From an uncultured virus (IMG/VR IMGVR_UViG_3300042937_000239) (lineage: Duplodnaviria; Heunggongvirae; Uroviricota; Caudoviricetes): a stretch of DNA of 22,557 bases. The notes under the pieces are model-generated. The model had not been told where the DNA came from, searched no databases, and saw only the letters and a program-made list of their open reading frames with translations. Both the position numbers and the translations under genes were made by a program. Of the stretch, positions 1 to 21,756 are shown piece by piece (the first letter of the stretch is position 1; each line of letters starts with the position of its first letter). The stretch lies in the IMG/VR virus record IMGVR_UViG_3300042937_000239; one strand, given 5' to 3'.

Positions 1-2593
1 TATTGGTACTGAAGTAACTGGCATGATGAGTGAAGCAGATAAAGCTACTGCCAAATCTATGGCTATTCAGAAATTGTACTTAGAAGATAAGTTGGCAAAA
101 GACAGTATTGCTGGAAAGTCAACCCAGGCAACAAGCAAACAGTTAGCTGATTTGGCGGATGCAGAGGGTTACCTTAAAGATAAAACTTTAGAAGCTGCTA
201 ATGCTGCTAGAGAGGCAGGTAAGACATTTGCAGAGTCATTAACCTCTACGTTTAAGGACGCATTTAAAGGTCTTTTAAACAGAGAAAGTGATAAGGGTAA
301 ATCTATATTTAAAACTTTTGCTGACAAACTTATTACAGGGATTAAAGATCAAACTGTAGATATCTTTACAAATGCTGTAACAGATAGTATTGGCCTTGGC
401 AAAGGCGGAGTGCTTAGTAAAATGTTAAGTAAAACAGGTACAGGACTTTCTTCTGGTTTCCGCGCATTGGGTGGCGGTGTTCAAAGCCTGCTATCTGGCA
501 AAGGAAGTTGGGAAGGATTTACATCTGGCGTTAGTAATTGGTTTAGCAATTTGACTTCTGATCTTGATAACGCTACGCCTGAAGAGATTCAAATGGCGGC
601 AGCTACAAAATTCTCTGACGCGGTGGACAGATTTGCAGGCGGGAGTGCCATTTCTGGTGCCGCTAATGCGGCTACAGGAAGCGGAATTGGCAGTGCCTTG
701 ATGAGTGCCTTGCCGTGGGTTGGCGGTGCCGCAGGCGTTGCGGGGTTGGGCTATATGGCAACTAAAGGCGGTGACTGGAGTAGTGGTTTAAAAGATCTTG
801 GTGCTAATTTTACAACTAAAGCTGGTAGTGCATTAACACCTTCCGGCAATCCTATGGAGACATTAGATCCACGTACAGGGTTGTTTGGTAAAATGGATTC
901 TTTTGATGCTGATGTTACAGGCTTATTTAATAATAAGAGTAGCAGTAACAAGAACGGCTGGTCAGCTGGTCTATCAGATTCTTTAGCTAAGAGTACCCCT
1001 GACACTACAGGCCTGTGGGATATAATTATGAAACCTATTAAATGGTTCTTTAGTTTAATAGGCGATGGTTTTACAGGAATTATGTCATTCTTTACGGGTG
1101 CTGGGCAGGGCGTTGGGACTAGTTCAGGTAAGCCTGAAAGTGCTACAAGCCCCTTAGATAGTCTTAAGCTTAAGTTTGCTAATGGCGGACCAGTCTCAGG
1201 CGGTGGTACAACTACTTCTGATTCTATACCTGCAATGCTATCTGATGGTGAGTTTGTAGTTAATGCAAAGGCTACCAAAGAAAACAGAGAAATGTTGGAG
1301 CGTATTAATCGTGGTGAAGTAATCAAACGTTCACTAGGCGGTATTGTCTCAATGGGTACAAGCCTTGCAGGAAGAGCTATTGGCGGTAAAACAGGAACAG
1401 CCCTAAGTTCATTAGGTTCTATTGCTAGTGGTGTTGCAGGCATGCTATCTAGTCAGCAAGCTGAACAAGCCGCTGAGTCTTTGTTAGCCGCATCTCAACA
1501 CTTAGAAACAGCCGCAACAGCCTTAGAAAACTTTGCAGCCACTGGCAGTATGGGTGGCGGTGCTGGTGGTTTTGGCGGTCTTAATGGCAGTACAATCGGC
1601 TTAAACGGCATTCCAGAGGGTATGACAAATTTCTCTAGACAGACAGGTATGGAGGGTGCAACCACTCAGGGTATTGCCGATACAAGCGGTTATGGCGCTA
1701 CGCCTGGATTAACACCAATATCTAGTGTAGGTATGGGTGATCTATCGGCTTCAGGTGGTATGGTTGGTGGTGGCGGTGGAATGTTTGATGGTATTTTTGA
1801 CTTCTTTTCAAAATTAGATTTTGGTAAGATGTTTGGAAGTCTTGGCAGTCTGTTTGGTCTTGGGGCTGCTACTGGTGGACATATTGTTGGCCCAGGTTCT
1901 GGTACTTCTGACTCTATTCCAGCTAACTTGTCTAACGGTGAGTTTGTCGTAAACGCAGCAGCTACTAAGGGTAATCTAGGGTTATTACACTCTATCAACG
2001 CTGGTAAAAAGGTTCAACATCGTGCCCTAGGCGGTTTGCTAACAATGATTCCAGGACTAGTTGGTGGTATTGGTGGTATGATTAAAGGCGGTGGCGGAGG
2101 TGGTGCAGGTGGTATTATGGGCATGATTTCGCAGTTACTTGGCCCCTTAATGAAGCTGTTTGGTGGCGGTGCAGGTGGTGGCGGTATTATGAGTTTATTT
2201 GGCGGTACTAAAGCAGCTACTGGTGGAAAGATTGTTGGACCAGGCTCTGGTACTTCGGACTCTATTCCTGCAATGATATCTAATGGCGAATTTGTTGTTA
2301 ATGCCGCAGCTACTAAGGCAAACCTTGGTCTTCTCCATAGCTTAAATAGTGGCCGTCAACACTTTGCAGAAGGTGGTTTAGCTGGCGTTTCAAGTGGCAT
2401 TATGACAACACCGACTTCAAAAGGCTTTAAACCAATATCGGTAGATAAGTCAACAAAGAGTACTCAACAGGTAGTTAACCTTAATATAACAGGTGATATC
2501 TCTCGTCAAACTAAGTCAGAAATCTTTAAGATGATGCCTACAATTGCGAGCGGTGTTAATTTACAAAATAAAGAAGCAGGAATTAAACGATAA
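1..2593 (+). CDS. Tail tape measure protein, C-terminal part (5'-truncated)
   Basis: The frame is open from position 2 (att ggt act gaa gta act ggc atg), so the true start lies upstream of the window. The sequence is Ala/Gly/Ser-rich and amphipathic, with three copies of the lambda gpH-type C-terminal motif (F/A)AxGGxVxGxGxxTSDSIPAxLSxGEFVVNA, then HFAEGG and a terminal VVNLNITGD strand. It lies directly upstream of tail tip genes. Confidence 0.92.
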   Translation, partial: IGTEVTGMMSEADKATAKSMAIQKLYLEDKLAKDSIAGKSTQATSKQLADLADAEGYLKDKTLEAANAAREAGKTFAESLTSTFKDAFKGLLNRESDKGKSIFKTFADKLITGIKDQTVDIFTNAVTDSIGLGKGGVLSKMLSKTGTGLSSGFRALGGGVQSLLSGKGSWEGFTSGVSNWFSNLTSDLDNATPEEIQMAAATKFSDAVDRFAGGSAISGAANAATGSGIGSALMSALPWVGGAAGVAGLGYMATKGGDWSSGLKDLGANFTTKAGSALTPSGNPMETLDPRTGLFGKMDSFDADVTGLFNNKSSSNKNGWSAGLSDSLAKSTPDTTGLWDIIMKPIKWFFSLIGDGFTGIMSFFTGAGQGVGTSSGKPESATSPLDSLKLKFANGGPVSGGGTTTSDSIPAMLSDGEFVVNAKATKENREMLERINRGEVIKRSLGGIVSMGTSLAGRAIGGKTGTALSSLGSIASGVAGMLSSQQAEQAAESLLAASQHLETAATALENFAATGSMGGGAGGFGGLNGSTIGLNGIPEGMTNFSRQTGMEGATTQGIADTSGYGATPGLTPISSVGMGDLSASGGMVGGGGGMFDGIFDFFSKLDFGKMFGSLGSLFGLGAATGGHIVGPGSGTSDSIPANLSNGEFVVNAAATKGNLGLLHSINAGKKVQHRALGGLLTMIPGLVGGIGGMIKGGGGGGAGGIMGMISQLLGPLMKLFGGGAGGGGIMSLFGGTKAATGGKIVGPGSGTSDSIPAMISNGEFVVNAAATKANLGLLHSLNSGRQHFAEGGLAGVSSGIMTTPTSKGFKPISVDKSTKSTQQVVNLNITGDISRQTKSEIFKMMPTIASGVNLQNKEAGIKR

Positions 2594-3225
2594 TGATACA
2601 CGGTATCCTAGATGATTCAGGCAATATAATTGCATCCTTTGTAGTCCCATTGACTGTAAAGAGCAATCAGCCAGTATTTGTCTCGGATACCCTTTCGTTA
2701 AAGCGTGCGATCCAACGTAGATCTTCTCAGAGATGGGAGATAGAGACTCGTCTATCTCCTCTCAAGGAATCAGCTAACGATTTGATGGTAAACTTTATAA
2801 CAAAGGGTTTCGACACAGTACATCAAATTATAGTCCCTCAAAATTATGCTGTTTTTACAAAAACAACTGCTAAGGGACTTGTTCAAACAGATACAGTTAA
2901 TAGAGTAGCCGGCTTAACTCAGCTTGCTATTGCTATGACAGCTATAAATGCAGGTAAGCTAATACCTAGCGGGACATTCATTAAGTTTGCAAATCATTCT
3001 AAGATCTATATGGTTATCGAGAATTGCACTATGTCAGAAACACAGGTGACAACACTTAAAATATTCCCACAGCTAAGACAAGCAGTTCCAGCAGGTACAT
3101 TAATCACATATAGTGATGATGTTAGAATGTCTGTACGATATGATACAGAAGTAGTAACCGGGATGGTATATGAAGACGGTTTACTAATGGATAATGGCGT
3201 TATTAAATTAATAGAGGCGTTATGA
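2593..3225 (+). CDS. Distal tail protein (Dit, T5 pb9-like)
   Basis: 210 aa, TAATG overlap with the tape measure gene. Position and size fit Dit. It has a QRWEIETRL strand and a GTFIKFANHSKIYMV...LKIFPQLRQAV beta domain of the kind seen in siphophage distal tail proteins. Confidence 0.7.
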   Translation: MIHGILDDSGNIIASFVVPLTVKSNQPVFVSDTLSLKRAIQRRSSQRWEIETRLSPLKESANDLMVNFITKGFDTVHQIIVPQNYAVFTKTTAKGLVQTDTVNRVAGLTQLAIAMTAINAGKLIPSGTFIKFANHSKIYMVIENCTMSETQVTTLKIFPQLRQAVPAGTLITYSDDVRMSVRYDTEVVTGMVYEDGLLMDNGVIKLIEAL

Positions 3226-4058
3226 TAACTTTTACCCCAAATGTAAAGTGGGCACTACAACAAGATACTATTGAAGCTTTTTATATGCTTCGTATTCTAC
3301 AAGAAACAGATTGCACGATAGCTGCTGCTGCAGTAGGTGCCACTACAATAAGTTTACTCCCTGCAGTTCCAACACAAAATAAAGTAATAAGAGCTGGCGC
3401 AATTGTTAAATTTGCAGGCGATACAAGTAGTTATTCAGTTGTTACAGGCGGAGATCTTTCTGATACTGTTGCAACTACTGTAACTATCACACCAGCCTTA
3501 ACAAGTGCAAAGCTTGTAAATACAAAAGTTACATTTGAATACAATGTAATACATAGTACAAGTTTGTTTATGGATATAGATCTACTAGATTCTGCAGATC
3601 TTCCTGTGCCAGGGCATAGCTACATTTCAGATGATACAATTGCAAGTGTGGATGCACCACAAGCTACTACTAACGTAGATAGAGAACAATTTAGAATTTT
3701 ACTAAATGATCCACGGCTAGAATCAATGGAAACTGTGTTTAATAATTTAATTGGTTATCCTATTGAAGTTAGACTAGGCTTTTTAAATGTTGACACTTGT
3801 CTGCCTTTTTTCAAATTTTCTGATACTCTTTTAGTGTATAAAGGACGTGTAGATAGTACGGCATACTCGATTAAGACACAAGAAATGGGCGAAGCTGTAT
3901 TACAAGTAACTGGTTCAAGTCCAATGAGAAGCTTAGACGCAAAGAATTCATTATTTCTAAGCAGAGATTATGTACGTCAGTTAACTCCAAAAGATTCCTC
4001 TTGTGACCAAATCTTTGAAGGATCAGAAGCTCTTGTATTAAAGTGGGGTAGAATCTAA
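3222..4058 (+). CDS. Tail tip/baseplate hub protein (gpL/DUF2163-like)
   Basis: 278 aa, ATGA overlap with the upstream gene. Motifs IEVRLGFLN, YKGRVDS, and a C-terminal DSSCDQI...LKWGR are typical of the gene between Dit and gpJ. Confidence 0.65.
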   Translation: MITFTPNVKWALQQDTIEAFYMLRILQETDCTIAAAAVGATTISLLPAVPTQNKVIRAGAIVKFAGDTSSYSVVTGGDLSDTVATTVTITPALTSAKLVNTKVTFEYNVIHSTSLFMDIDLLDSADLPVPGHSYISDDTIASVDAPQATTNVDREQFRILLNDPRLESMETVFNNLIGYPIEVRLGFLNVDTCLPFFKFSDTLLVYKGRVDSTAYSIKTQEMGEAVLQVTGSSPMRSLDAKNSLFLSRDYVRQLTPKDSSCDQIFEGSEALVLKWGRI

Positions 4059-7000
4059 TGGTATTTTTAACACTAACACTTGGCATGTGGCTTATGGTAG
4101 CAATGGTTGCTATCTCAGTCGGAATGACAATTTATAGCTTAATGCAAACACCACCAGCCTTTGACACAAGTGCTTTAGAAGCTCGTAAAGGAGCTGAAGT
4201 TGTTATTGAAGGAAAGTCAGAAGATCTCCCACTAGTTTATGGAAGAGCTATGGTAGGTGGCGCACGTGTATTTCATGCAGTATCTAGTGACTTTAACTAC
4301 GTAGCACCTAATGCAGATAGAACGTTTGCAACAGGTGTTAATCATACGGTAAATTGGACTGCAGAAAAATATGTAGTTCAAAATCCACGTGGACCAAATG
4401 CAACGCTGTTAAAAGTAGCTAGTACAGGTACAACTGAAATTCTCACTCAATTAGCAAAAAGTATTAACGGTAGGAAGAATGAATTTTTATACTTTCAACA
4501 AGCAATTTGTCAAGGCCCGATTGGTGGTGTAATTGATGTTGTATTAGAATCATCGCGTTATTTAGATGACGCAACCTTAGCTACATTTGGTGCTCCAGAT
4601 AACCTTGCTACTGGTGAAAAGCATAAATGGAGTGACCCGAAAAAGGCTCGTACAGCTGTTAGGATTGATGTACATTACGACCTAGCGATGAATGTTGCAG
4701 ACAGTATTATTGCAGCTAATTTCCCTGAAAGATCAGATGCTACTTTTAATAATATGGTATATGCTTCTGCTACAGTACGTACAGATAGAGACGATCCACA
4801 GTTTAGCCAACCACCTAGCCTACAGTTCTATATAGAAGGCAAGAAAGTTCGTAAGGTTGTAAATGGAGTACTAAATACAAATTTTGAGTATAGTAATAAC
4901 CCAGCTTGGTGTTTGTTAGACTATCTATTAGACGGTCTCTCTGGTGCATCAATTCCTATTGAAGAGATTAATCTTCCAAGCTTTGAAGCTGCTTCTTTAG
5001 TTTGTGATTATATTGTTGAGCCAAGTGTAACAACAGCGGGAAAGATTTGGCAGAATACAGAAGGAGATCGCAATATTCATACTAGAGCTTTGCCTCTTTA
5101 TGAATGCAACATGGTCATTGACACTAAGAAGCCAATTAGAGATAATATCACCGGCATGCTAACTAGTATGGGTGATGCACGTTTAGTGTGGTCACAAGGG
5201 CAGTATAAATTAAGTCTTCAATACACACATACAAGTAATGATGATTTGTTTATTGTAGCTGAGCTTGGTGAAGATGACTTAGTGCTTGACCAAGAAGTTG
5301 AAATTAATTTACCTTCAGCTAGTGATCGCTTAAATTACTGTACAGTTAAGTTTCATAATGAATTGTCTAATTTTAAAGAAGATTCTGTAAGCTGGCCTCC
5401 TAAGTTTCCTGGTAAGGTTTATAAAGGTGTTGGCGGTAAGAAATACCCTATTGCAGATTATAGTTACACAGAAGACAATGATGATGGTACCTTTAATAAG
5501 GGCGCCAATTTATTAAACTCTGTAGGTGTCTGGGGATCTACTCTTAATACTACATACTTAAGCTATCATATCATTTTGACTTATGAAGATGTTATGGACC
5601 CCATTACTAATCTGCTCGGACCTGTTAAGTTAGAGTACACAGGTGATAATCAGATTAGAATTAAGGTTAGCGACAAAACCACTAGTAACCTTTATTTAGA
5701 TCAACAACACAAAGACTGGAAATCAGTAAAAACATCTACAATCACATTACCAATTCTGCCGGGTGAAACACAAGTTTTTCATATAGAAATATGGGGAACA
5801 AATACTAAGGGAGACAAAGCTGTAGCTGCTAGGATGACTAATGGCCCTAAAATATTGTGGACAACTCGTGAATCAGCTTACTCAGATGTATTAGAAATTG
5901 ATAACACTAGTACGACATACTCAGTCTTCTTAGAAGAAGATGGCGGTACTAAGTTAGAAATGGAAACTTCAGTTGAAGCAATGACAGACCCCTATCATGC
6001 AGCAGCTAAGGCAGAAGAATACGTAAGGATGAGTCGATCGTCTTTTGTAATTAAATTCAAATATGTTGTAAGAGAGAATTATCTAGAGCCTGGCGATTTC
6101 GTTAAACTCAACAGTCCTACACTTAATCTTGCAGGTGAAATATTTAGAATCAATTCTGTTAAGATTGTTGAGGGCAATAATTGTGAAGTAACCGCGCAAC
6201 GCTTTGATCATTTACAATTAGCTTGGTCGCAAAAAGATGACCAGTTTATGGTTCCGCCAAATATTTATAGTAATCTTTTTAATCCGCCAAGAAATCTTAA
6301 ATACATACCTACGGGTAGTTCCCGATTAATTACATCAGGTACTTTAACTTGGGACGCTCCAAGTGATTCTGTAGATTTGGCTTATTATATTGTATCTGTA
6401 CACGAAGCCGATGGACCCGTTCGAACTAACAATGCTCCAATTTTTAGAGAATTAGGGCGCGTAGCTGAAAATTATTATGTATTACCTAAGCTAGAAGCTT
6501 TTAGCGCAATATTTTCAGTAATGGCTGTTAGCACATCTGGGCGTCGTTCTACTACAATCTATACTGGTGATAAAGCACAAATAATAGATGTTTATGACTC
6601 GTATCTATTTGATGGGTTAACAGTGTCACGTAGTAATCTTATTGTAAATTGGACGGCCTGTAATGTATATGAGAGCGGTGTTCTATTAAAAGCTTTACCA
6701 GCGGGTACAGCCACATGGACAGAAGGCCTGCTGTTTATCTACTTTGATTTTGTTAATGATAAGATTATTAAAGCTACAACAGATTATGCTGAAGTTTATA
6801 ATGGCGTTATATTAGCTACCTTTGATGGTGTTGATCTTAATTTGAGTGTATCGGAATTAGATGCGCCTACAGTATTAACTATTGAAGGACGTACCGATAC
6901 AGTATTTGATTCTAAAGACGCTAAGATTGTTTGGCAAGCTAATTCTTCAAACCGTTTAGCAAGTACTTTCTTAAAACATTATCTTGTTCAAGTGCTTACT

Positions 7001-10000
7001 ACCGCAGATGTATTAAAGAAGGCTTATGTAATTACACCTGATAAAGATGATGCAGGTTCTTTGCTAATTACTGATACAATGAATTTAGAGTTGTTCGGAA
7101 CATTAACTCGTAGCTTTAAAGTTCGTGTATATACAGTTGATTCTGCAGGATTGCTATCGGCAACACCTAAAGTTTCTACTATTACGAATGCAGCACCTTT
7201 AGTAACAACTTTAGAACTAACACCAACTGTTAAGGCTGTGTTTGTAAAAGCTGCAATCATGTCTGAAGATGATATTGTTAAGTATGAATTTAAACAATAT
7301 GCAACTGAAACAGCAACAACTGCAGAAAATACAGTAACAACAGTTAGTAATAGTTGTACATTTCCTACAGCTGACGATTTAGATCGTTGGTACACAGTGA
7401 CTGGATACGACTACTACGGTATTGGTGTCGAGTCTGCGCGTATGAAAGAGAAGTCATTATCACAACCGCAATCAACTGGTTATGCGTTCTTACGGTATGC
7501 GAGTGATACACCGCCTGTTGCACCGACTGGTGGTACGTACCTACTGCCGACACCCACAGCAGGCACAGCAACTGACCCACTTGGCACGCTGGCGTGGGAG
7601 GATGGCATCCCTGATGGCACGGCACGCTTGTGGCAGACAACGCGAATATTCACGGCTGACGAGCAACCACCGCATCAAACGGCATGGCAAACACCACAGT
7701 TAGTGGCAAACACTGCTACAACAAAGTATCAATATAGCTCTGTCAATCCACCTACAACAAGTTATGCAGACTGGGCGGATGCGCCTGGATTAACAACGTT
7801 GTATATGAGAGTTGGTATATCTAAAGATGGTGCAGATGGTCCATGGGAATGGGGAGCAGCTTATAAGGTTAAGGGCGAAGCACCTCAAACTAGTTTCTTA
7901 TCTACTGTGTTTACTAGAAGTACAGGCAATACAATACCACCTTTGCCTACTGGCGGTACATTTCCAAGAGGTATTCCTAGTGCCCCCTGGTCTGATGGTA
8001 TTCCTGCTGGTACAGGTAAGATTTATACTTCTAATAGATTATTTACTAGTGACGGCCAATCGCCACAAGATTCTACTTGGAATACAGTAACTTTAATGGT
8101 TACTAACGACAAGACTAAGTTTCAGCTTAATAATAGCGATCCTGTTGATAGCAATGCGTGGTACGATTCTGATGATGCTAGTAAAGACCCTACGCTTGCA
8201 ATCTATATGCGTATTAATTATTCTGAAGATGGTGGTACAACTTGGTCATATGGTGCTCCTTCAAAAATAAAAGGTGAAAAAGGCGTTCCTGGTTATACAA
8301 GTTTTGTTAGTACTGTATTCACCAGAACAAAAGGGATTCCCTTACCTACACCTCCATTACCTTCTGGTGGTAGTTTTAATAGTGATGGTTTGCCAACCGA
8401 TGGAGTATGGACTGACGGAATACCTGCCTTACCTGGGGTACTCTGGAGTTCATATAGAACTTTTTCAAATGATCCTGCAGAAGCAGCTACCAACTGGTCT
8501 ACACCTGTTCGTATTCTAGATGATAGCAATACGGATTATCAATTCAGTCTTACAAATAGTTCTGACAATAGTACATGGCAAGACAATGAATTTGAAGGCG
8601 CTGTATACATGCGTATTGGTACATCCGTTGATGGTGTAAACTTTGTATATGGTACAGGGATCAAGATCAAGGGTGAGAAGGGTAATCCTGGTTTTATTTC
8701 ATTTAAGAGTACTGTATTTACTAGACGTGCTGCAAATAACCCTGTTAATACAAAGCCTACTGGTGGTTCTTTTGAACAACCGCGTCCTGTAGAAACAGAA
8801 TGGGAAGATGGTATACCAAGCGGTGAAGGTATTGTATGGCAATCATACACTACATTTACAAATGATGTTACTGCAGCTACGCCTATTTGGAGTGATCCTG
8901 AAGCTGTTATTAATGATGATAAGACTAAGTACTATTTTAATACTACTAATGCAACTACAGGTTGGTCTGAAACACCAGACATTAATACTGTGTGGATGCG
9001 TATTGATACCAGTATTGACGGGTTCTTAACAACTATTACTGGAACACCTTTCAAGATAAAAGGTGAAAAAGGTGATGACGGTTATGCAGTATTTAAGAGT
9101 ACTGTATTCACTAGACGTGCTGCAAATAATCCACCGTTAGAAGCACCAACAGGCCTTACTTCTGGCAGTCTTCCGGTGAATACCGAATGGAAAGATGGAA
9201 TTCCTCCGTTGCCAGGTATTCTTTGGGAATCACATGCATCTATTAGTACAGATCCTTTGATAACAACTACAACATGGTCATTTCCAAAGCAAATCTTAGA
9301 TGATAATAATACAAAGTATTACTTTAACAGTGCTAATGTAGCTACAGGGTGGTCACAAGCACCAAGTACCACTACTGAATGGATGCGTATTGACACAAGT
9401 AGTGATGGCTTTTTAACTACTGTTACTGGTACACCATTTAAGATTAAAGGTGAAAAGGGTGAAACAGGTTCCGGAATTGATATAAGGTTAACAAAAGAAT
9501 TAGTTTATATTCCTACAACATTGGCAGATGTTTCTGATTATTCTAATGCAACTACAGGTATTGTTGTTCAAAACAATAATGTAGATGTTGTGTACTCAGC
9601 AACTGCTGTTACGCTTGTTGGCGCATTACCTAATACCTATAGTGTAACTTTTGAAAAAGAAAATCTTACAGGTACACCTTCTTTAGAAGTAATTAACGGG
9701 GTTGTTACGAGTAAAGATTTTGGTACAATTACACAAGGTGTTGCAAGACTTATATTTGTTATTACAATAAAAGATCAGTATGGAAATATACTAGGCCCGT
9801 TTAAGAAAGCGCAATCACTTGTGAAGCAATTTCCTGATGGCGTTTTAGATCTTTTAAATACAAGTAAGGAACAACTTAGTGTAAATGGAACAGTCTTAAA
9901 TCCTGTAACAGATATTACAGTTACGTATTCTCCTGATAAAAATGGAGATGGCCGTACTGATGGTTTTATAAACTGGCAATACCCTCTTGATGCAGCCATA

Positions 10001-13000: not shown

Positions 13001-13354
13001 AAAGAAGCTAAGATTGGAGGATTAATACAAGCCACTCCAGCAGCAACTATACCGTATGAGGGTAGTGTTCTGCTAAGCACAACAGTAAACTTAAATGGTA
13101 CAAGAACGCTATACAGAGGTCGTAACGGTCAATGGGAGCCTTTTGTTGATTTATCATCTAGCGAAATCTTTAAAACTGTTAAGTTAATGAACGCTAATAA
13201 GGTTGCAACCAAAGCCTTGGTTACAGATACAGGCGGTTATTATACTCGTGTTATCAACTCGAAGGGCAAACTACCTGCTTGGTCTAAAACTGCTAATGAT
13301 ATATTTGCTAAAAGCTTATTGGCAGGTAACGTTTTACCAACTTTAATTTTATAG
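4058..13354 (+). CDS. Central tail fibre / host-specificity protein (gpJ-like), 3098 aa
   Basis: TAATG overlap. Hydrophobic N-terminus with LPLVYGRAMVGG; hub motifs IEGKKVR, YSNNPAWCLLDYL and LEPGDFVKLN; FN3-like units (PPRNL...LTWDAP...YYIV, about 6284-6550); then two long repeat arrays. Confidence 0.9.
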   Translation: MVFLTLTLGMWLMVAMVAISVGMTIYSLMQTPPAFDTSALEARKGAEVVIEGKSEDLPLVYGRAMVGGARVFHAVSSDFNYVAPNADRTFATGVNHTVNWTAEKYVVQNPRGPNATLLKVASTGTTEILTQLAKSINGRKNEFLYFQQAICQGPIGGVIDVVLESSRYLDDATLATFGAPDNLATGEKHKWSDPKKARTAVRIDVHYDLAMNVADSIIAANFPERSDATFNNMVYASATVRTDRDDPQFSQPPSLQFYIEGKKVRKVVNGVLNTNFEYSNNPAWCLLDYLLDGLSGASIPIEEINLPSFEAASLVCDYIVEPSVTTAGKIWQNTEGDRNIHTRALPLYECNMVIDTKKPIRDNITGMLTSMGDARLVWSQGQYKLSLQYTHTSNDDLFIVAELGEDDLVLDQEVEINLPSASDRLNYCTVKFHNELSNFKEDSVSWPPKFPGKVYKGVGGKKYPIADYSYTEDNDDGTFNKGANLLNSVGVWGSTLNTTYLSYHIILTYEDVMDPITNLLGPVKLEYTGDNQIRIKVSDKTTSNLYLDQQHKDWKSVKTSTITLPILPGETQVFHIEIWGTNTKGDKAVAARMTNGPKILWTTRESAYSDVLEIDNTSTTYSVFLEEDGGTKLEMETSVEAMTDPYHAAAKAEEYVRMSRSSFVIKFKYVVRENYLEPGDFVKLNSPTLNLAGEIFRINSVKIVEGNNCEVTAQRFDHLQLAWSQKDDQFMVPPNIYSNLFNPPRNLKYIPTGSSRLITSGTLTWDAPSDSVDLAYYIVSVHEADGPVRTNNAPIFRELGRVAENYYVLPKLEAFSAIFSVMAVSTSGRRSTTIYTGDKAQIIDVYDSYLFDGLTVSRSNLIVNWTACNVYESGVLLKALPAGTATWTEGLLFIYFDFVNDKIIKATTDYAEVYNGVILATFDGVDLNLSVSELDAPTVLTIEGRTDTVFDSKDAKIVWQANSSNRLASTFLKHYLVQVLTTADVLKKAYVITPDKDDAGSLLITDTMNLELFGTLTRSFKVRVYTVDSAGLLSATPKVSTITNAAPLVTTLELTPTVKAVFVKAAIMSEDDIVKYEFKQYATETATTAENTVTTVSNSCTFPTADDLDRWYTVTGYDYYGIGVESARMKEKSLSQPQSTGYAFLRYASDTPPVAPTGGTYLLPTPTAGTATDPLGTLAWEDGIPDGTARLWQTTRIFTADEQPPHQTAWQTPQLVANTATTKYQYSSVNPPTTSYADWADAPGLTTLYMRVGISKDGADGPWEWGAAYKVKGEAPQTSFLSTVFTRSTGNTIPPLPTGGTFPRGIPSAPWSDGIPAGTGKIYTSNRLFTSDGQSPQDSTWNTVTLMVTNDKTKFQLNNSDPVDSNAWYDSDDASKDPTLAIYMRINYSEDGGTTWSYGAPSKIKGEKGVPGYTSFVSTVFTRTKGIPLPTPPLPSGGSFNSDGLPTDGVWTDGIPALPGVLWSSYRTFSNDPAEAATNWSTPVRILDDSNTDYQFSLTNSSDNSTWQDNEFEGAVYMRIGTSVDGVNFVYGTGIKIKGEKGNPGFISFKSTVFTRRAANNPVNTKPTGGSFEQPRPVETEWEDGIPSGEGIVWQSYTTFTNDVTAATPIWSDPEAVINDDKTKYYFNTTNATTGWSETPDINTVWMRIDTSIDGFLTTITGTPFKIKGEKGDDGYAVFKSTVFTRRAANNPPLEAPTGLTSGSLPVNTEWKDGIPPLPGILWESHASISTDPLITTTTWSFPKQILDDNNTKYYFNSANVATGWSQAPSTTTEWMRIDTSSDGFLTTVTGTPFKIKGEKGETGSGIDIRLTKELVYIPTTLADVSDYSNATTGIVVQNNNVDVVYSATAVTLVGALPNTYSVTFEKENLTGTPSLEVINGVVTSKDFGTITQGVARLIFVITIKDQYGNILGPFKKAQSLVKQFPDGVLDLLNTSKEQLSVNGTVLNPVTDITVTYSPDKNGDGRTDGFINWQYPLDAAISGFVVCYNNVRYAPGTTDYILSDYTCEDVLNNIKHQIVQIGTGSRVVRVPDMGTESHRVGFVFAFRILSKDTWDNYAFSKLKHKGEYYAVSSPTVLGTTIVEKSAPNRYTDVVNKDMEITLEDGTTIKVSEIFENGLRVNVINSNVALVAPTDGTVAFTYSNADAVSSSVNLQITFEASNVIAVTSGYAFCVISKDTADLVQFENLTVKQIMETKKTFTKFVDAANGILQPNGRFKYSVEAANVPGALNHAVYIFAFRYASGAKTSKATYTDGTTKIPYYVSPVLKAGTTKYSGNVIIKGDVIEDKTGTTTNLTDLYTVITDWNDGNNRTLTAITALPIIPTTPAPIVYDSSANSSGNVDYTLNFFYNGVVISPATGADDSIDGFCILEQTVLPNATGLPTANIAAPTVAKMIINPAARFIDAKDYVAIDNGTYKYEVKMPEAKAIPYRVVFIFAYRAISAGQAKLIQKGATLIELGTKEKKSYIVSTIVRTHPLATPSLFTGDLYIRAGLKDSYGNTIAINKLTETIADFDVTNNKSTAKIVPVTNLALSYNIIGCTSGNVNLVIDFYFTGSLTDIDGFIYYEATLPEQANISDLTHKTLFAKPDAKFIDVDSTVASAHFTVEIPESKTTLFRTVFVCAFREVYDSVYKAAGNLPTATRPDRLTYGKRFLIVGPIARSHVNGNLYQPQTQAIIKAGVNVGGTKVVTLSDAIGDWDLTNNGGLAGMTATVPAPTYPMDGTGMVLTGSTLETNVDILVKWEYVLAQILDPITNTLINPIDGFLIYLREDTNTSPDAMIDLNKLTVKHTFVTTDVDQREYTFSNMPMKTKKALNYYNIAVFAYHLISENTYTKGIKDSTIKSSLKRPAAFNTPMVISANTGYVFSANKSYVLKDTADSLPHEFAIVGDYWLNTSGSTTAGIEHLSYGYFNSAGWSQLTEDEVIKKFNAARASKEGIIHTYSSPIEPPNKPGFYWKNTSADVQSGVASNGIVYWDIDRLLWQPKEAKIGGLIQATPAATIPYEGSVLLSTTVNLNGTRTLYRGRNGQWEPFVDLSSSEIFKTVKLMNANKVATKALVTDTGGYYTRVINSKGKLPAWSKTANDIFAKSLLAGNVLPTLIL
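7463..9470 (+). repeat. Five ~130-aa tandem repeats in the gpJ-like protein, joined by collagen-like linkers
   Basis: Each unit follows STVFTR...PTGG...WxDGIP...W...(Y/W)MR...DG...K(I/V)KGE. Units 4 and 5 match at 38 of 40 nt at 8701-8740 versus 9091-9130, giving a 390-bp period. Confidence 0.9.
9895..12630 (+). repeat. Five degenerate ~180-200-aa beta-rich repeats in the gpJ-like protein
   Basis: Recurrent motifs SGNV(D/N), I(D/S)GF and (V/I)FA(F/Y)R (VFAFR, IFAFR, IFAYR, VCAFR, VFAYH), with linkers ITDWNDGNN, IADFDVTNN and IGDWDLTNN. Confidence 0.75.
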
Positions 13355-13362
13355 GAGTATAA

Positions 13363-16300
13363 ATGACAACGTACGTAGCAGCAGGTGATCAGTGGACTAA
13401 CACTGCTGACGCCAATGTAACTGATCCTACTACAGGACAAGTTATAAAACCTGGTACTACTGTCGAATTTAATGGAGAGGACTGGAGCTATATTTCAGTC
13501 CTTCCGACTAAATCGGCAACAGCGCCGACAGAACAAGTAATGGGGCAATTGTGGGTTAACACTTCAGTTACCCCTAATACTTTATCTCAATATATCCCAG
13601 CAACAGATACTTGGGATGTCATAGCAACACTAGTAGATGGTCCAGAAGATCTTAATTGTGAAGCTTATTCAACTCACAATGCGTATTTAGGTTTATATTC
13701 AGGATCGTATTATTACTCAAAAGGCGATGTAGTAAGCTATCAAGGAAAGAAATGGTGGGCATTAAGAGCTAATCAAGGCTCTACACCAGAAGAAAATGCT
13801 GACTGGACGCTATTAACATCTACAGGAGAATCGGGCAAGTCATTGTTTGATATATCTTTTTACCAAGTAGCTCTTTCAGCACCTACGCAAAACCCTGTTG
13901 GCAGTTTTACAAGAGATATGGTAACAGGAGTAACAGCGGCAGACGCAGGTTTTCAACTTAACGGTTGGGCTGTAAACCCTCCAGCGGCTGTCTTAGGGCA
14001 AACATTATGGAGAGTTACAAATACTGTTGAAGTAACCGCAGGGATGGCAAGTAGTGGCTCAATTGCTTGGATACCTAAAACGCCAACAGCTATGAGTGCT
14101 TCCGGTGTCTCCGCTAACTTTACAGTAGGTACTGTAACAAAGGGTGATAACCCTTCTGTAACTAAGACAGGCACTGCTGGTGATTTTACACTAGATTTTG
14201 TACTGCCTAAGGGCGATCCAGGTGCTGCTGAGAGATATGATATTTTAGGCGGTACTACATATATTGATTGTAATCATATAACAGGTGTTCCTGTATTAGA
14301 GTTTTTAATATTTTCATTATTGAAAAGCTTAGGAACGTCTACTTCAGATGTCACTAGCGTAGTCTGGTCAGCCTACTCAATGTCACAATATGGCTATGCA
14401 GGTAATGCTATACCTGTAAGTAATTTAAATAATGGTGCTGTTAATGTTCCTTTAGCTACTTGTCGGTGGGGTTTAGTAATTAGCGCAAAGTTAACTGCAA
14501 ACGGCCCTACAGTTGCAAGTAAATTCATTGCACCTCAGCTTATTGAGATTCCTGGACCAAAGGGTGATACAGGGACAAAAGGTGATACAGGCAATACTGG
14601 CACAATCAATGTCGGTACTGTAAGTGCAATAGCATATGGTTCTACTCCTACTGTAGTTAACTCAGGGACATCTACAGCCGCTGTATTTAACTTTGGGTTG
14701 CCACGTGGTGAGAAAGGTGATGCAGGCGTAATTAGTAGCGTAACAGCTACATCTACAGCAGCAGGTACAACAGCTGCAGTTACGTTAGGTGGCACACCTA
14801 GTGACCGTACAATTGCACTGAGTATTCCAAAAGCTTATAACGGTACAAGCCGTGTATTTATTGAAATGTATAAATGGGCAGTAGATGAGCCTACTATAAA
14901 ACCTTCAGGTACTTCTACTTATACATGGGCAGATGACACGTATAGCTGGCCTACAGGCGGTTCTAATTCATGGACAGCTTATCCAGGTGCTGCACCAGGT
15001 GGTATGACGCTTTGGGTAGTTAGAGCAAAGATTGTTAGCCAAACAGTAGATGTAACAACAGATGTTACTTGGTCAGATGCTGTAATCTATCCTATTAGCG
15101 GGTCTGGTCCAGGCTCTTATACTTGGATTAAATATGCAACTGCTGCTGATGGCACAGGCATGACAGATACTTATAGCGATACTATGAAGTTTATGGGTAT
15201 TGCTGTAAATAAGCTGACGGCTACAGAGTCTACTAGTGCTGCTGCATATGACTGGGTTAGAATTAGAGGTGCTGATGGTATTGATGGGGTTTCTACTACT
15301 ATGTATAAGGTAGAGCCTGTTGATCCAATCCTAACTAAGAATGCTGCAACTGGAACTTTGAATAAAACTCAAATTACTTTTAATTCGTATGCTAGAACAG
15401 GGGTTGGTGCTTTCGTAGATTATGCAGCGTTTTGGCGTGTGTATTTAGATGGCGTAGAAGTTAATGCCTCTGCTGCAAGTACTTCAACAAAGGCTGCAAC
15501 TATTACTAGTGGTTCAAGTTACGTTAAAGCAATCATCTATTCAGATTCTGCTAGAACAATTAAGATAGATGAGGTATATGTACCTATTGTAAATGAAGGT
15601 CCAAAAGGTGATACAGGTACTTTAGCATTAGGTACAATAGCTACAGGTGCTCCAGGTTCTACTGTTGCAATTACTAACACAGGGACAGCGTCTGCTGGTA
15701 TTCTTAATATTACAATACCTAGAGGAGATGTAGGCGCTACGGGTGCTGTACAAACCATTTCTATTGGGACTGTTACAAAAGGTATCACAGCTGCTGTAAC
15801 TCGCACATTAACAGGTTTAAATAATAGTTTTGATTTTGTACTACCACAAGGTGATAAGGGTGATGCGGGAACAATTTCTATTGGTACTGTATCTACAGGT
15901 GCTGCTGGCTCTAATGTTGCCATTACGAACGTAGGTACAGCTTCTTCGGCTATCCTTAATATTTCAATACCAAAAGGTGATCAAGGATTACCGCCTACAA
16001 TAACAGCTAATAGTACTACAACAGGTACTGCAGGCTCATCTGCTAGTGTTACATTGGATGCGTCAAGCACTTCTACAGCCGCTAAATTTAACTTTACAAT
16101 ACCGAAGGGTGATAAGGGGGATGCTGGTAATGCAGGTAGTATTACTGTAGGTACAGTAACCACTGGTAATGCAGGCACAAACGCTGCAGTTTCAAATAGC
16201 GGAACTACATCTGCAGCTGTATTTAATTTTACAATCCCTAGGGGTGATATTGGGCCTGTTGCCGCATTTAGTGTGGGTACAGTTACAACAGGTAGCGCAG

Positions 16301-17169
16301 GCTCTAGTAGTGCTGCAAGTATAAGTGGAACAAGTGCTAGCCCTGTGTTAAACCTAACAATTCCAAAAGGCGATAAAGGAGATATTGGCCCTAATCTATT
16401 TATAACATCTAGCAGAGAGTTAGCTTTCTATTCGGTTGATAACATATATTCTGGATCAGGTAATAGTAATATAACCCTAACAGCTGTTAAGTCGTCAGAT
16501 ATTACTAGTACAAGTTATGTATGGTCATTTTCAGGCTTTAATGGCGGGAATCCCTCTACTAGTGCTCAAAATGCTGTAATTAGTACGTCTAATATGGGTA
16601 CATCTCGCGCAGCAACAGCCACTTGTACTATTGGCGGATACTCTTATATGGTAACTATTTATCGTATGAATGAAAGCTCTGCAGAAGCCGGGGCTACCGT
16701 TGGCGCAGATTGGAGCAGTAACGTAACAAATAGGCCTACTTCTTTATCTGGTATTAACTCAACGGAAGGCACGTTGCTTGGATTGTTTTCATATAGCGGA
16801 TCTACTGTAACTTTAAATGCTAACTTCCAATCAAATGCTAATATTACTGCTTATTATTCTTCTGATGAAAGATTAAAAGAATGTGTACGTAAGATATATG
16901 ATCCTATTGGAAAGTTAAAATCAATATCAGGTAACAACTTTAAATGGGCAGAAGATTATTATGCTAAACAAGATTCTGATTTTGTTAAGGAATGGGATGT
17001 TGGTGTACTTGCGCAAGAAGTAGAAAGAGTATTACCAGAAGCTGTTAGAAAACGTAGTGATGGATTCTTAGCGGTAGATTACGCTAAAATTATACCTTTA
17101 CTTATTGAGGGTTTTAAAGCTCAACAAGAAATTATAGAGGAACTTAGAAATGCCATACAGCATAAGTGA
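13363..17169 (+). CDS. Lateral tail fibre with collagen-like repeats and a C-terminal intramolecular chaperone (peptidase S74)
   Basis: GGAG Shine-Dalgarno overlaps the upstream TAG. CBM5/12-like module (YSKGDVVSYQGKKWWAL...W, 13696-13806). Nine GTVTTG...A.V..SGT...FNFTIPxGxKGD units. C-terminal SSDERLKE...VGVLAQEVERVLPEAV...LAVDYAKIIPLLIEGFK plus coiled coil is the S74 signature. Confidence 0.9.
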   Translation: MTTYVAAGDQWTNTADANVTDPTTGQVIKPGTTVEFNGEDWSYISVLPTKSATAPTEQVMGQLWVNTSVTPNTLSQYIPATDTWDVIATLVDGPEDLNCEAYSTHNAYLGLYSGSYYYSKGDVVSYQGKKWWALRANQGSTPEENADWTLLTSTGESGKSLFDISFYQVALSAPTQNPVGSFTRDMVTGVTAADAGFQLNGWAVNPPAAVLGQTLWRVTNTVEVTAGMASSGSIAWIPKTPTAMSASGVSANFTVGTVTKGDNPSVTKTGTAGDFTLDFVLPKGDPGAAERYDILGGTTYIDCNHITGVPVLEFLIFSLLKSLGTSTSDVTSVVWSAYSMSQYGYAGNAIPVSNLNNGAVNVPLATCRWGLVISAKLTANGPTVASKFIAPQLIEIPGPKGDTGTKGDTGNTGTINVGTVSAIAYGSTPTVVNSGTSTAAVFNFGLPRGEKGDAGVISSVTATSTAAGTTAAVTLGGTPSDRTIALSIPKAYNGTSRVFIEMYKWAVDEPTIKPSGTSTYTWADDTYSWPTGGSNSWTAYPGAAPGGMTLWVVRAKIVSQTVDVTTDVTWSDAVIYPISGSGPGSYTWIKYATAADGTGMTDTYSDTMKFMGIAVNKLTATESTSAAAYDWVRIRGADGIDGVSTTMYKVEPVDPILTKNAATGTLNKTQITFNSYARTGVGAFVDYAAFWRVYLDGVEVNASAASTSTKAATITSGSSYVKAIIYSDSARTIKIDEVYVPIVNEGPKGDTGTLALGTIATGAPGSTVAITNTGTASAGILNITIPRGDVGATGAVQTISIGTVTKGITAAVTRTLTGLNNSFDFVLPQGDKGDAGTISIGTVSTGAAGSNVAITNVGTASSAILNISIPKGDQGLPPTITANSTTTGTAGSSASVTLDASSTSTAAKFNFTIPKGDKGDAGNAGSITVGTVTTGNAGTNAAVSNSGTTSAAVFNFTIPRGDIGPVAAFSVGTVTTGSAGSSSAASISGTSASPVLNLTIPKGDKGDIGPNLFITSSRELAFYSVDNIYSGSGNSNITLTAVKSSDITSTSYVWSFSGFNGGNPSTSAQNAVISTSNMGTSRAATATCTIGGYSYMVTIYRMNESSAEAGATVGADWSSNVTNRPTSLSGINSTEGTLLGLFSYSGSTVTLNANFQSNANITAYYSSDERLKECVRKIYDPIGKLKSISGNNFKWAEDYYAKQDSDFVKEWDVGVLAQEVERVLPEAVRKRSDGFLAVDYAKIIPLLIEGFKAQQEIIEELRNAIQHK
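15622..16389 (+). repeat. Six consecutive ~40-aa beta/collagen fibre repeats
   Basis: Units end in ITIPRGD, FVLPQGDKG, ISIPKGDQG, FTIPKGDKG, FTIPRGD and LTIPKGDKG. Three more units occur between about 14110 and 14840. Confidence 0.85.
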
Positions 17170-20785: not shown

Positions 20786-21249
20786 TAGTACGGAAGATAA
20801 AAAGCCAAGAAGAAATGGCCAAGTGCGTAGATATGTATATTGACATCTACGAAAATGAAATTATCCCATTAGACCGTGACAAATCATTATTATCAATGAG
20901 ACGTCATGTTGCTGCAGGACAATTCTTTAAAGTAATTGAAGACAATGGAGAAGTAATAGCATGGATTGCTGGAGCAGTTTTAGAAAGAGAATTTATTGCA
21001 GAGAAATACATGCAACAGATTTATTATTGTTCTAACCAAAAGGGTATGAAAGCTTATCGTTGTGTAGTATTGCTTCATAAGGCATTAATTGAAGAGTCTA
21101 AGAAATTAAATATTAGACACGTATTGTCAACAGGCAGTCATGCAGACACTGAGAATGTATTCGTAAAAATTCTCGGTAAGAATGGTTGGAGCGTTAGAAA
21201 TTATTTAGCAATATGGAGAAACGATGAAATACATATGGGCACGGCTTAA
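20782..21249 (+). CDS. GNAT-fold (acetyltransferase-like) protein
   Basis: 155 aa, ATGA overlap. The pattern MIVR..., FKVIEDNGEVIAWIAG, LLHKALIEESKKLNIRHV and ILGKNGW follows the GNAT strand/helix order. The acetyl-CoA-binding motif is degenerate. Confidence 0.6.
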   Translation: MIVRKIKSQEEMAKCVDMYIDIYENEIIPLDRDKSLLSMRRHVAAGQFFKVIEDNGEVIAWIAGAVLEREFIAEKYMQQIYYCSNQKGMKAYRCVVLLHKALIEESKKLNIRHVLSTGSHADTENVFVKILGKNGWSVRNYLAIWRNDEIHMGTA

Positions 21250-21406
21250 AGAGCCTTCAACATGGTTTGGACTGATTTCAGCTACATTGGCTGTATTAAG
21301 TTCATTCAAATTTGTTACACTAACAGCAGAAGAAATGGATAGTCTGCTTGCGTTGTCAGTTGCTCTTTTGGGCAGTGGTAGCGTAGTATCCAAAGATCCA
21401 CAATAG
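21224..21406 (+). CDS. Small membrane protein, putative holin
   Basis: 60 aa, Shine-Dalgarno GGAG in ggagaaacgATG. It has an RLKEPSTWxGL motif, which I recall from small phage holin-like proteins, and two hydrophobic segments. It is the last gene before the terminator. Confidence 0.6.
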   Translation: MKYIWARLKEPSTWFGLISATLAVLSSFKFVTLTAEEMDSLLALSVALLGSGSVVSKDPQ

Positions 21407-21412
21407 CGGTAC

Positions 21413-21440
21413 GCCTCGACACAACTGTCGGGGCTTTTTT
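21413..21440 (+). terminator. Rho-independent terminator closing the late tail operon
   Basis: Stem GCCTCGACA / TGTCGGGGC (9 bp, one G-U pair), loop CAAC, followed by TTTTTT, starting 6 nt after the holin stop codon. Confidence 0.9.
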
Positions 21441-21450
21441 ACGAGAGTCA

Positions 21451-21630
21451 TGGGGGCAATTTTGCGGGGCAAGACGGGGCATTTCTGCACGAATTTTGGT
21501 GGGCGGCAAATCTGGGCGTGTGTGGCGCGGGGCGGTGGGGGCATCACTGGTGGATCAGGGCGGCAGTTGCGTGCCGTGTAGGGCGGTTTCTGGTGCCAGA
21601 ACTGGTACACGTGGGGCAGTTGCGTGCAGT
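21451..21630. other. G-rich non-coding island with repeated GGGC/GGCA motifs
   Basis: Hand count 114/180 GC (80 G, 34 C) in an AT-rich background. It contains the direct repeat GGCAGTTGCGTGC (21562, 21615) and the inverted repeat TTCTGG-TG-CCAGAA (21588-21601). Confidence 0.8.
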
Positions 21631-21657
21631 TCTTCAGGTACACTCAACCCCGTTAAA

Positions 21658-21686
21658 TTAACCCTTGCGGCCTCCCCCTGTATTAT
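21658..21686 (+). promoter_or_regulatory. Candidate sigma70 promoter for the AcrVA2-like gene
   Basis: TTAACC (4/6 match to -35) - 17 bp - TATTAT (5/6 match to -10), followed by an AT-rich leader and AGGAG at 21746-21750. Confidence 0.4.
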
Positions 21687-21756
21687 CTCTCTTAGTAATA
21701 CGGAAATAATAGTATCTTATATGAAGTACAATAATAACTTTATATAGGAGAATACT

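What the first reader, a model, noticed from the sequence alone, without database searches (positions are those of the whole stretch)
598..21630. Three matched GC-rich GGCA/TGCC islands, two hidden inside tail genes: a possible dispersed cis-acting DNA signal
Seen: three islands of similar size and composition in an AT-rich background. At 621-750 GC is 82/130 with 9 GGCA/TGCC in 598-760; at 7511-7690 GC is 110/180 with 10 motifs in 7545-7708; at 21451-21630 GC is 114/180 with 9 motifs. About 2-3 motifs (both strands) would be expected per island even at this GC. GGCAC/GTGCC is the most common pentamer. Islands 1 and 3 share the exact 11-mer TTTCTGGTGCC (651-661 and 21587-21597). Island midpoints are about 6.95 kb and 13.9 kb apart (1x and 2x), but the predicted position near 14.58 kb shows only two motifs (14590, 14599), so the spacing may be chance. 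Inference: these may be clustered binding or loading sites for a phage or host protein involved in packaging, nicking, ejection pausing, replication priming or genome organisation, superimposed on coding sequence through synonymous codons.
Basis: partly seen in the sequence, partly recalled or inferred. Interest (0 to 1): 0.8.

Follow-up and report, generated by a model that had tools for sequence, protein, structure and literature searches.

The report
Bendable GC blocks before phage promoters
A family of freshwater phages keeps a roughly 140-base GC-rich stretch with an 11-base rhythm directly in front of two of its likely RNA-polymerase promoters, which likely serves as a surface for wrapping DNA around a protein to help open those promoters; the two GC patches inside tail genes are real but may be unrelated.

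Summary
All counts are exact, and GGCA/TGCC excess survives shuffled and recoded controls. The shared 11-mer and the 7-kb spacing are chance. The window is the tail end of an 82.6-kb siphovirus with two T7-type RNA polymerases. A fourth island lies outside the window. Island 3 and island 4 each end at the same 18-bp promoter-like motif (7 copies, all sense, before operons). Relatives keep a GC block before exactly these two promoter classes: 59 of 64 and 23 of 26 non-redundant loci, against 1 of 41 at the SSB-gene copy. The sequence turns over, but a sharp left edge near -136, an 11.0-11.75-bp GC/AT period and a GGCA excess (one class) persist, even where a gene overlaps the block. Best reading (0.4): a wrap/bend platform that channels negative supercoiling into promoter opening, loaded by host gyrase or a phage protein. 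The gyrase motif fits only weakly. Islands 1 and 2 are codon-level GC patches found only in the closest relatives; membership in the same class is unproven.

The parts
595..751 (.). Island 1: GC3-rich patch (62% GC) inside the C-terminal part of the tape measure gene (window 2-2593); no promoter motif nearby; class membership unproven
   Evidence: top gyrase-matrix site of the genome at about window 703 (score 10.8)
7511..7688 (.). Island 2: GC3-rich patch (62% GC) encoding the first of five paralogous repeats in the central tail gene (4058-13354); no period, no promoter; class membership unproven
21224..21406 (+). 60-aa membrane-protein ORF ending the late operon (holin-like by hydrophobicity and position; inferred, no family hit)
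21413..21444 (+). Intrinsic-terminator-like hairpin plus T run before island 3
   Evidence: one RNA contig of a related strain ends at 21409 (single study, weak)
21451..21640 (.). Island 3 (class A): non-coding GC-rich block with about 11.5-bp GC/AT period, ending at the 18-bp motif; conserved as a class in relatives
21647..21665 (+). 18-bp promoter-like motif ACCCCGTTAAATTAACCC(T); 7 copies in the genome, all sense and intergenic before operons; likely promoter of a phage RNA polymerase
21671..21678 (+). C tract after the motif, also after the first copy of the terminase and scaffold promoter pairs; role unexplained
21712..21733 (+). Second repeat (3 copies, early region only), candidate early promoter of the head-protein-fused RNA polymerase

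Best explanation
Island 3 and the fourth island are GC-rich blocks of about 135-190 bp with an 11-bp GC/AT rhythm that sit directly upstream of two of the five classes of a likely phage RNA-polymerase promoter, and they likely act as shape-read wrapping surfaces that help open those promoters. Inferred steps: a protein wraps or bends the block right-handedly (a period above 10.5 bp fits plectonemic or right-handed wrap, not nucleosome-type wrap); most likely host gyrase, as needed for N4 early promoters, otherwise a phage protein such as the conserved 206-aa product encoded right after promoter B; the GC-rich block resists melting, so torsional stress opens the AT-rich 18-mer instead. The two promoters start the early region and the block of genes before the packaging operon. 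Selection is on composition and phasing, not on letters, so the block can overlap a gene through synonymous codons. Islands 1 and 2 would be promoter-less, lineage-specific patches of the same kind (about 35%) or unrelated imports.
For: Class B: of 160 loci, 96 non-redundant, 64 had the motif with enough upstream DNA; 63 of 64 above local background, 59 of 64 by more than 0.08 at -136..-40 (0.62 vs 0.43); 52 of 63 change points between -164 and -111, median -137. Class A: of 74 loci, 59 non-redundant, 28 with an upstream motif; 27 of 28 above background, 23 of 26 by more than 0.08 after dropping two duplicates. Control, the SSB-gene copy of the same motif: 1 of 41, mean +0.002; terminase and scaffold copies also lack it in the 23 records. 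Period peak 11.0 (59 distant B loci, z 5.5), 11.25 (20 distant A, z 3.7), 11.75 (6 near A, z 14.7); three control sets z -1.8 to 0.4. Signal carried by AA/TT and GC steps, weakly in antiphase. Block is intergenic in most relatives and overlapped by a gene in others. Length resembles the 130-bp gyrase motif (PMC6379681); 11-12-bp shape reading is how phi29/GA-1 p6 binds (PMC10899789); N4 early transcription needs gyrase (PMC4496689).
Against: No binding or transcription experiment. The published gyrase matrix scores island 3 at 7.2, island 4 at 5.6, island 2 at 5.2, none above shuffles, against 12.5 for Mu SGS; pooled excess (A z 0.76, B 0.65) is nearly matched by an upstream control (0.45); best centres scatter from -115 to -48; the conserved CATG near -100 is out of phase with a gyrase dyad. 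Island GC rises with background (slope 0.8-1.0), which a local mutation or conversion bias would also give. Island 4 of this genome alone shows no significant period. AA/TT autocorrelation is small. Loci are related, so z values overstate independence. 22 of 96 B loci had no motif within 4 mismatches and 31 of 59 A loci gave no usable site. Curved promoter-upstream DNA is usually AT-rich (PMC6301789). 25 promoter-less in-gene patches of relatives show no pooled motif or period excess. The motif's role as promoter and its direction are inferred.
Confidence: 0.4

Rival explanations
1. The blocks are parts of two promoter-primed replication origins; GGCA clusters would be primase sites or the GC block a barrier that makes unwinding one-directional.
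For: T7-type polymerase, primase-helicase, SSB and RNA polymerase; AT-rich DNA downstream of promoter A (GC 0.29-0.34 at +40..+100); GGCA is strand-biased in class B (71 vs 44.9 expected; TGCC 59 vs 46.2); GCA as a primase triplet is recalled for SP6.
Against: No GGCA excess in 20 distant class-A loci (13 vs 13.8); island 1 has the opposite strand; primase zinc-finger residues vary without a matching motif change; no G skew or G4 pattern (3 of 64, 6 of 26); a primase word does not need an 11-bp period.
Confidence: 0.17
2. The blocks are packaging or genome-entry signals: a bent pac-like segment wrapped by small terminase, or a terminal repeat, with the second block marking a second entry stage.
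For: Class A lies at the late/early junction, just before the candidate virion-polymerase promoters, where a first-entering end is expected; fixed length and sharp edge; small-terminase rings select bent 100-bp DNA (PMC4737164).
Against: Two unlike blocks per genome; none at the terminase promoters; DNA contigs run through island 3 and island 4 at even depth; assembly overlaps start at varied places.
Confidence: 0.15
3. The blocks are passive melting clamps or barriers to silencer (H-NS-type) spreading; only GC content matters and no protein wraps them.
For: Constant GC offset over background, no conserved sequence, no RNA-fold excess over the control set.
Against: Does not explain the 11-bp period, the CATG at -103..-95 in 15 of 59 loci or absence at three other promoter classes.
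Confidence: 0.13
4. No function: a local GC-biased mutation or gene-conversion tract beside two promoters; for islands 1 and 2, old recombination imports from GC-richer relatives.
For: Offset scales with background; islands 1 and 2 occur only in G000/G007-level relatives, with normal synonymous divergence (11 of 41 four-fold sites); similar GC3 patches recur at lineage-specific places in other genes without motif or period.
Against: For classes A and B: period, positional motifs and sharp edge over polymerases of 47-100% identity. For islands 1 and 2: GGCA/TGCC excess and island 1's top gyrase score (p 0.02-0.03 under recoding). Weight about 0.08 for A/B, about 0.5 for islands 1 and 2.
Confidence: 0.1

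Closest known systems
Mu strong gyrase site and the E. coli gyrase motif (PMC6379681)
   Same: About 130 bp, GC-rich relative to these genomes, phased GC/AT, read by shape; island 1 is the best-scoring site of this genome
   Different: Period 11.0-11.75 rather than 10.75, no fixed dyad, scores 5-11 rather than 12-16, fixed position before a promoter
phi29/GA-1 protein p6 recognition regions (PMC10899789)
   Same: Bendability pattern without sequence specificity, 11-12 bp repeat, roles at promoters and origins
   Different: No p6-like protein identified; GC-rich; T7-type replication and transcription genes, two internal sites
Coliphage N4 polymerase relay (PMC4496689)
   Same: Virion-type and non-virion single-subunit RNA polymerases; short inverted repeat in the promoter motif; possible need for supercoiling
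   Different: Siphovirus, polymerase fused to a MuF head protein; no upstream GC block described in the passages read; hairpin here is AT-rich and untested
SPP1/SF6 pac DNA (PMC4737164)
   Same: About 100 bp of nucleosome-like bendable DNA chosen by conformation
   Different: Two blocks, neither at the terminase gene
EBPR siphovirus 1 (JF412302) and Naomviridae DSS3_VP1 (NC_055826)
   Same: Nearest named phages (fused head protein 58% and 30%); ESV1 has four copies of the 18-mer and a GC-raised class-B block (0.65 vs 0.55)
   Different: VP1 has another repeated motif and no GC island

Membership tests
Strong gyrase site | About 130 bp with phased GC/AT | tested here: met
   edge at median -137; period peak 11.0-11.75
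Strong gyrase site | High score on the gyrase matrix, above composition, around one dyad | tested here: not met
   islands 2, 3, 4 not above shuffles; 7 of 39 islands p<0.05; centres scattered; island 1 alone 10.8, p 0.007
Strong gyrase site | Strong cleavage and processive supercoiling by gyrase | not testable with these tools
   needs in vitro or Topo-Seq data
phi29 p6-type nucleoprotein region | Bendability repeat of 11-12 bp without conserved letters | tested here: met
phi29 p6-type nucleoprotein region | A p6-like wrapping protein in the genome | tested here: inconclusive
   only the 206-aa candidate was folded; no clear match
T7-type promoter-primed origin | Phage promoter followed by AT-rich DNA (recalled) | tested here: met
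   also true of copies without an island
T7-type promoter-primed origin | One-strand primase words beside the promoter | tested here: inconclusive
   GGCA excess in class B and near class A, none in distant class A
T7-type promoter-primed origin | Replication starts there | not testable with these tools
   only contigs available
pac site or terminal repeat | Single site at or beside the terminase gene, or one sequence repeated at both ends | tested here: not met
   two unlike blocks; none at terminase promoters
pac site or terminal repeat | Virion DNA ends at the site | tested here: inconclusive
   contigs cross both blocks; contigs cannot show ends
Structured RNA, ssDNA hairpin or G4/R-loop element | Folding beyond shuffles, Rfam hit, or G-rich strand | tested here: not met
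Single-subunit phage RNAP promoter (18-mer) | Repeated, one orientation, intergenic, before operons, conserved with the polymerase | tested here: met
Single-subunit phage RNAP promoter (18-mer) | Mapped start site and cognate polymerase | tested here: inconclusive
   one RNA contig begins 20 nt after copy B (one study)

The most novel reading that the evidence does not exclude
A whole phage family uses a DNA-shape enhancer for single-subunit RNA polymerase promoters: a 136-bp GC-rich, 11-bp-phased wrap block read by a phage-encoded protein of new fold (the 206-aa gene after promoter B), with extra copies written into synonymous codons of long late genes and moving between genes as lineages diverge, forming a distributed topological code.
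Probability: 0.15. Interest if true: 0.85.

Novelty: new variant of a known kind. Interest (0 to 1): 0.58.

Why it matters
T7-type promoters are usually treated as self-contained 20-bp words (recalled). A conserved 136-bp upstream block defined by shape, at only two of five copies of one promoter, would give a way to rank identical promoters by DNA topology and shows a structural code that can overlap genes. It is directly testable on plasmids with the cloned polymerase, and marks the likely control points (first promoter, second stage, possibly origins or ends) of a widespread uncultured phage family with two RNA polymerases.

Full report
Context. The window is bases 62,001-84,557 of one virus contig with a 1,996-bp identical end overlap, so the unit genome is 82,561 bp at 38% GC. 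Nearly all genes lie on the + strand. It encodes a 742-aa T7-type RNA polymerase, a second polymerase domain fused to a MuF head protein, pol A, primase-helicase and SSB. The window holds the end of the tape measure gene, tail genes, a small membrane ORF and the first early gene. Nearest named phages are EBPR siphovirus 1 and DSS3_VP1/PM1; the runs that hold it are lake and freshwater metagenomes.

Observation. GGCA/TGCC exceed dinucleotide shuffles in all three islands (p 0.001, 0.002, 0.008). In the coding islands the excess survives recoding of the same protein at matched GC3 (p 0.002, 0.010) but weakens when the island's own codons are permuted (p 0.027, 0.15), so it comes mostly from which codons were chosen. 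GC3 corrected for amino acids is z 4.9 and 5.8, the top values of the genome with the fourth island (5.2); genome-wide p is 0.037, 0.003 and 0.013 in 300 simulations. The shared 11-mer appears in 110 of 1000 shuffles and the spacing is irregular once the whole genome is seen. The motif was chosen after seeing the data, so the fourth island (p 0.005) is the cleaner test.

What the islands touch. Island 3 and island 4 (genome 23,551-23,700, the 3' end of a 223-aa ORF) both end at an 18-bp motif present 7 times, always sense and intergenic: before the early region (A), SSB, a conserved 206-aa gene (B), the terminase genes (twice) and the scaffold gene (twice). It matched in 21 of 21 and 7 of 11 records searched, forward-only except one copy, with no hit for the reversed control (the 21 were chosen because they held it). 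I read it as a phage-polymerase promoter; start site, direction and cognate enzyme are inferred. Islands 1 and 2 have no copy nearby.

Conservation as a class. In 23 whole or partial records, GC is raised upstream of A and B copies and not upstream of SSB, terminase or scaffold copies (A exceptions G021, G025, ESV1). With larger sets: class B, 160 loci, 96 non-redundant, 64 scored (22 lacked the motif within 4 mismatches, 8 were too short, 2 not scored); 63 of 64 above background and 54 of 64 by more than 0.08 at -170..-10; 59 of 64 at -136..-40, 0.62 against 0.43. Mean GC steps from 0.40 to about 0.6 near -136; 52 of 63 change points fall between -164 and -111. In many relatives the upstream gene stops just left of this edge, so the block is a GC-rich intergenic spacer; in others, as here, a gene runs through it. 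Class A, 74 loci, 59 non-redundant, 28 with a usable site: 27 of 28 above background, 23 of 26 by more than 0.08 at -190..-60 after dropping two duplicates. The SSB copy: 1 of 41, mean +0.002. Letters are not conserved beyond near relatives.

Inner pattern. The GC/AT spectrum peaks at 11.0 bp in 59 distant B loci (z 5.5), 11.25 in 20 distant A loci (z 3.7) and 11.75 in 6 near A loci (z 14.7); three control sets give z -1.8 to 0.4. AA/TT and GC steps carry it, in weak antiphase; part of the AA/TT value may be A-tract clustering. A motif search returns a G-run, GCA, T-tract unit (null only mononucleotide shuffles). GGCA is enriched in distant B loci (71 vs 44.9) but not distant A loci (13 vs 13.8) or controls. 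CATG sits at -103..-95 in 15 of 59 B loci. There is no folding, G4 or skew signal beyond control. Loci share ancestry, so z values are upper bounds.

Gyrase test. I used the published matrix (PMC6379681: passages, one section, and supplement parts 3, 238, 242). It ranks Mu SGS first on the forward strand at 12.45 (paper 12.37); my reverse-strand value, 11.1, is below the paper's 14.3. Island 1 is the best site of this genome (10.8; p 0.007, and 0.02-0.03 under recoding). Islands 2, 3 and 4 do not beat their shuffles; 7 of 39 islands reach p<0.05. Pooled excess is z 0.76 (A) and 0.65 (B) against 0.01 and 0.45 in two controls. So the blocks work like wrap sites by length and phasing but are not filed as strong gyrase sites.

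Islands 1 and 2. Both are kept in G007 (z 3.3 and 6.5) with ordinary synonymous divergence (12 of 42 and 11 of 41 four-fold sites). Island 1 is absent from the homologous segment of G002, G006 and G001 (z 1.3, 0.0, 0.6). Other relatives carry GC3 patches of similar length elsewhere, some at fixed positions in sub-lineages of the fused head gene (23 non-redundant genes), but 25 such patches show no pooled motif (z 0.3) or period (z -0.2) excess, against z 7.1 and 5.4 for 9 promoter-adjacent coding patches; the 50-codon scan favours lengths near 150 bp. They may be extra wrap sites in the 38-kb late unit or old imports.

Mechanism. Shown: position, length, edge, GC offset, period, class specificity. 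Inferred: promoter status, wrapping, the wrapping protein and the effect on opening. Periods above 10.5 bp are read as plectonemic or right-handed geometry (PMC4132750, passages); p6 proteins read an 11-12-bp bendability pattern at origins and promoters (PMC10899789, passages); N4 needs gyrase for early promoters (PMC4496689, passages); plectonemes pin upstream of promoters, though usually at AT-rich curves (PMC6301789, passages); small terminases select bent DNA (PMC4737164, passages). I commit to a wrap platform aiding promoter opening (0.4, about half of it host gyrase). Origin (0.17), packaging or entry (0.15), passive clamp (0.13) and neutral bias (0.1) remain. The 206-aa protein after promoter B is a candidate reader by position and conservation only.

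Novelty. Shape-read wrap elements are known; one fixed upstream of selected copies of a single-subunit polymerase promoter was not found in the ten searches run. In PMC8323127 (passages) nothing on termini or such repeats appeared; the preprint 10.1101/2025.10.29.685362 (passages) was irrelevant, and its supplements were not seen. T7, SP6 and H-NS facts are recalled. The scan's only note on this genome concerns the fused polymerase; word and sequence look-ups found nothing.

Noticed in passing
G000 genome 40026-44960 (L072:26-4960): MuF head protein fused to a T7-type RNA polymerase domain, besides a separate 742-aa polymerase; shared with ESV1 and DSS3_VP1
   Followed up: partly
window 21712-21733; genome 1151, 2040, 3213: Second repeat confined mostly to the early region and present in 19 of 23 records; candidate promoter of the fused polymerase, with an imperfect inverted repeat
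   Followed up: partly
G000 genome 23792-24412 (P0001): Conserved 206-aa helical protein with no fold match, two internal repeats, a beta-hairpin start weakly like MBD domains and a Lys/Ala tail; its region has the deepest RNA contigs
   Followed up: partly
G000 genome 27226/27358 and 45704/45814: Tandem pairs of the 18-mer 110-130 bp apart with a C tract and very AT-rich spacer (GC 0.19-0.25), conserved in near relatives
   Followed up: no
G022 14991-15345 and 16476-16730; G004 (63441-63720, 64891-65090): Arrays of GGCAN-type pentamers on one strand (up to 21 GGCA) between primase and ligase genes, one followed by a tRNA-like sequence; a different feature from the islands
   Followed up: no
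NC_055826 (DSS3_VP1) 2333, 19202, 19237, 45926, 46393, 46551, 59196: Repeated 16-bp motif before SSB, portal and other genes, a likely unreported phage promoter in a cultured phage; partly resembles the reverse complement of the 18-mer
   Followed up: partly
window 4058-13354: 3098-aa central tail protein with five 130-aa repeats; tape measure gene of 4330 codons with three C-terminal repeats
   Followed up: no
G000 genome-wide: CCGG is depleted (28 seen, 60 expected) and CG is at 0.63 of expectation, suggesting host restriction or methylation pressure
   Followed up: no
fused head gene, residues about 190-240, 400-450 and 1520 of relatives (L081, L093, L094, L122, L127, G008, G013): GC3 patches recurring at the same positions within sub-lineages
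   Followed up: partly
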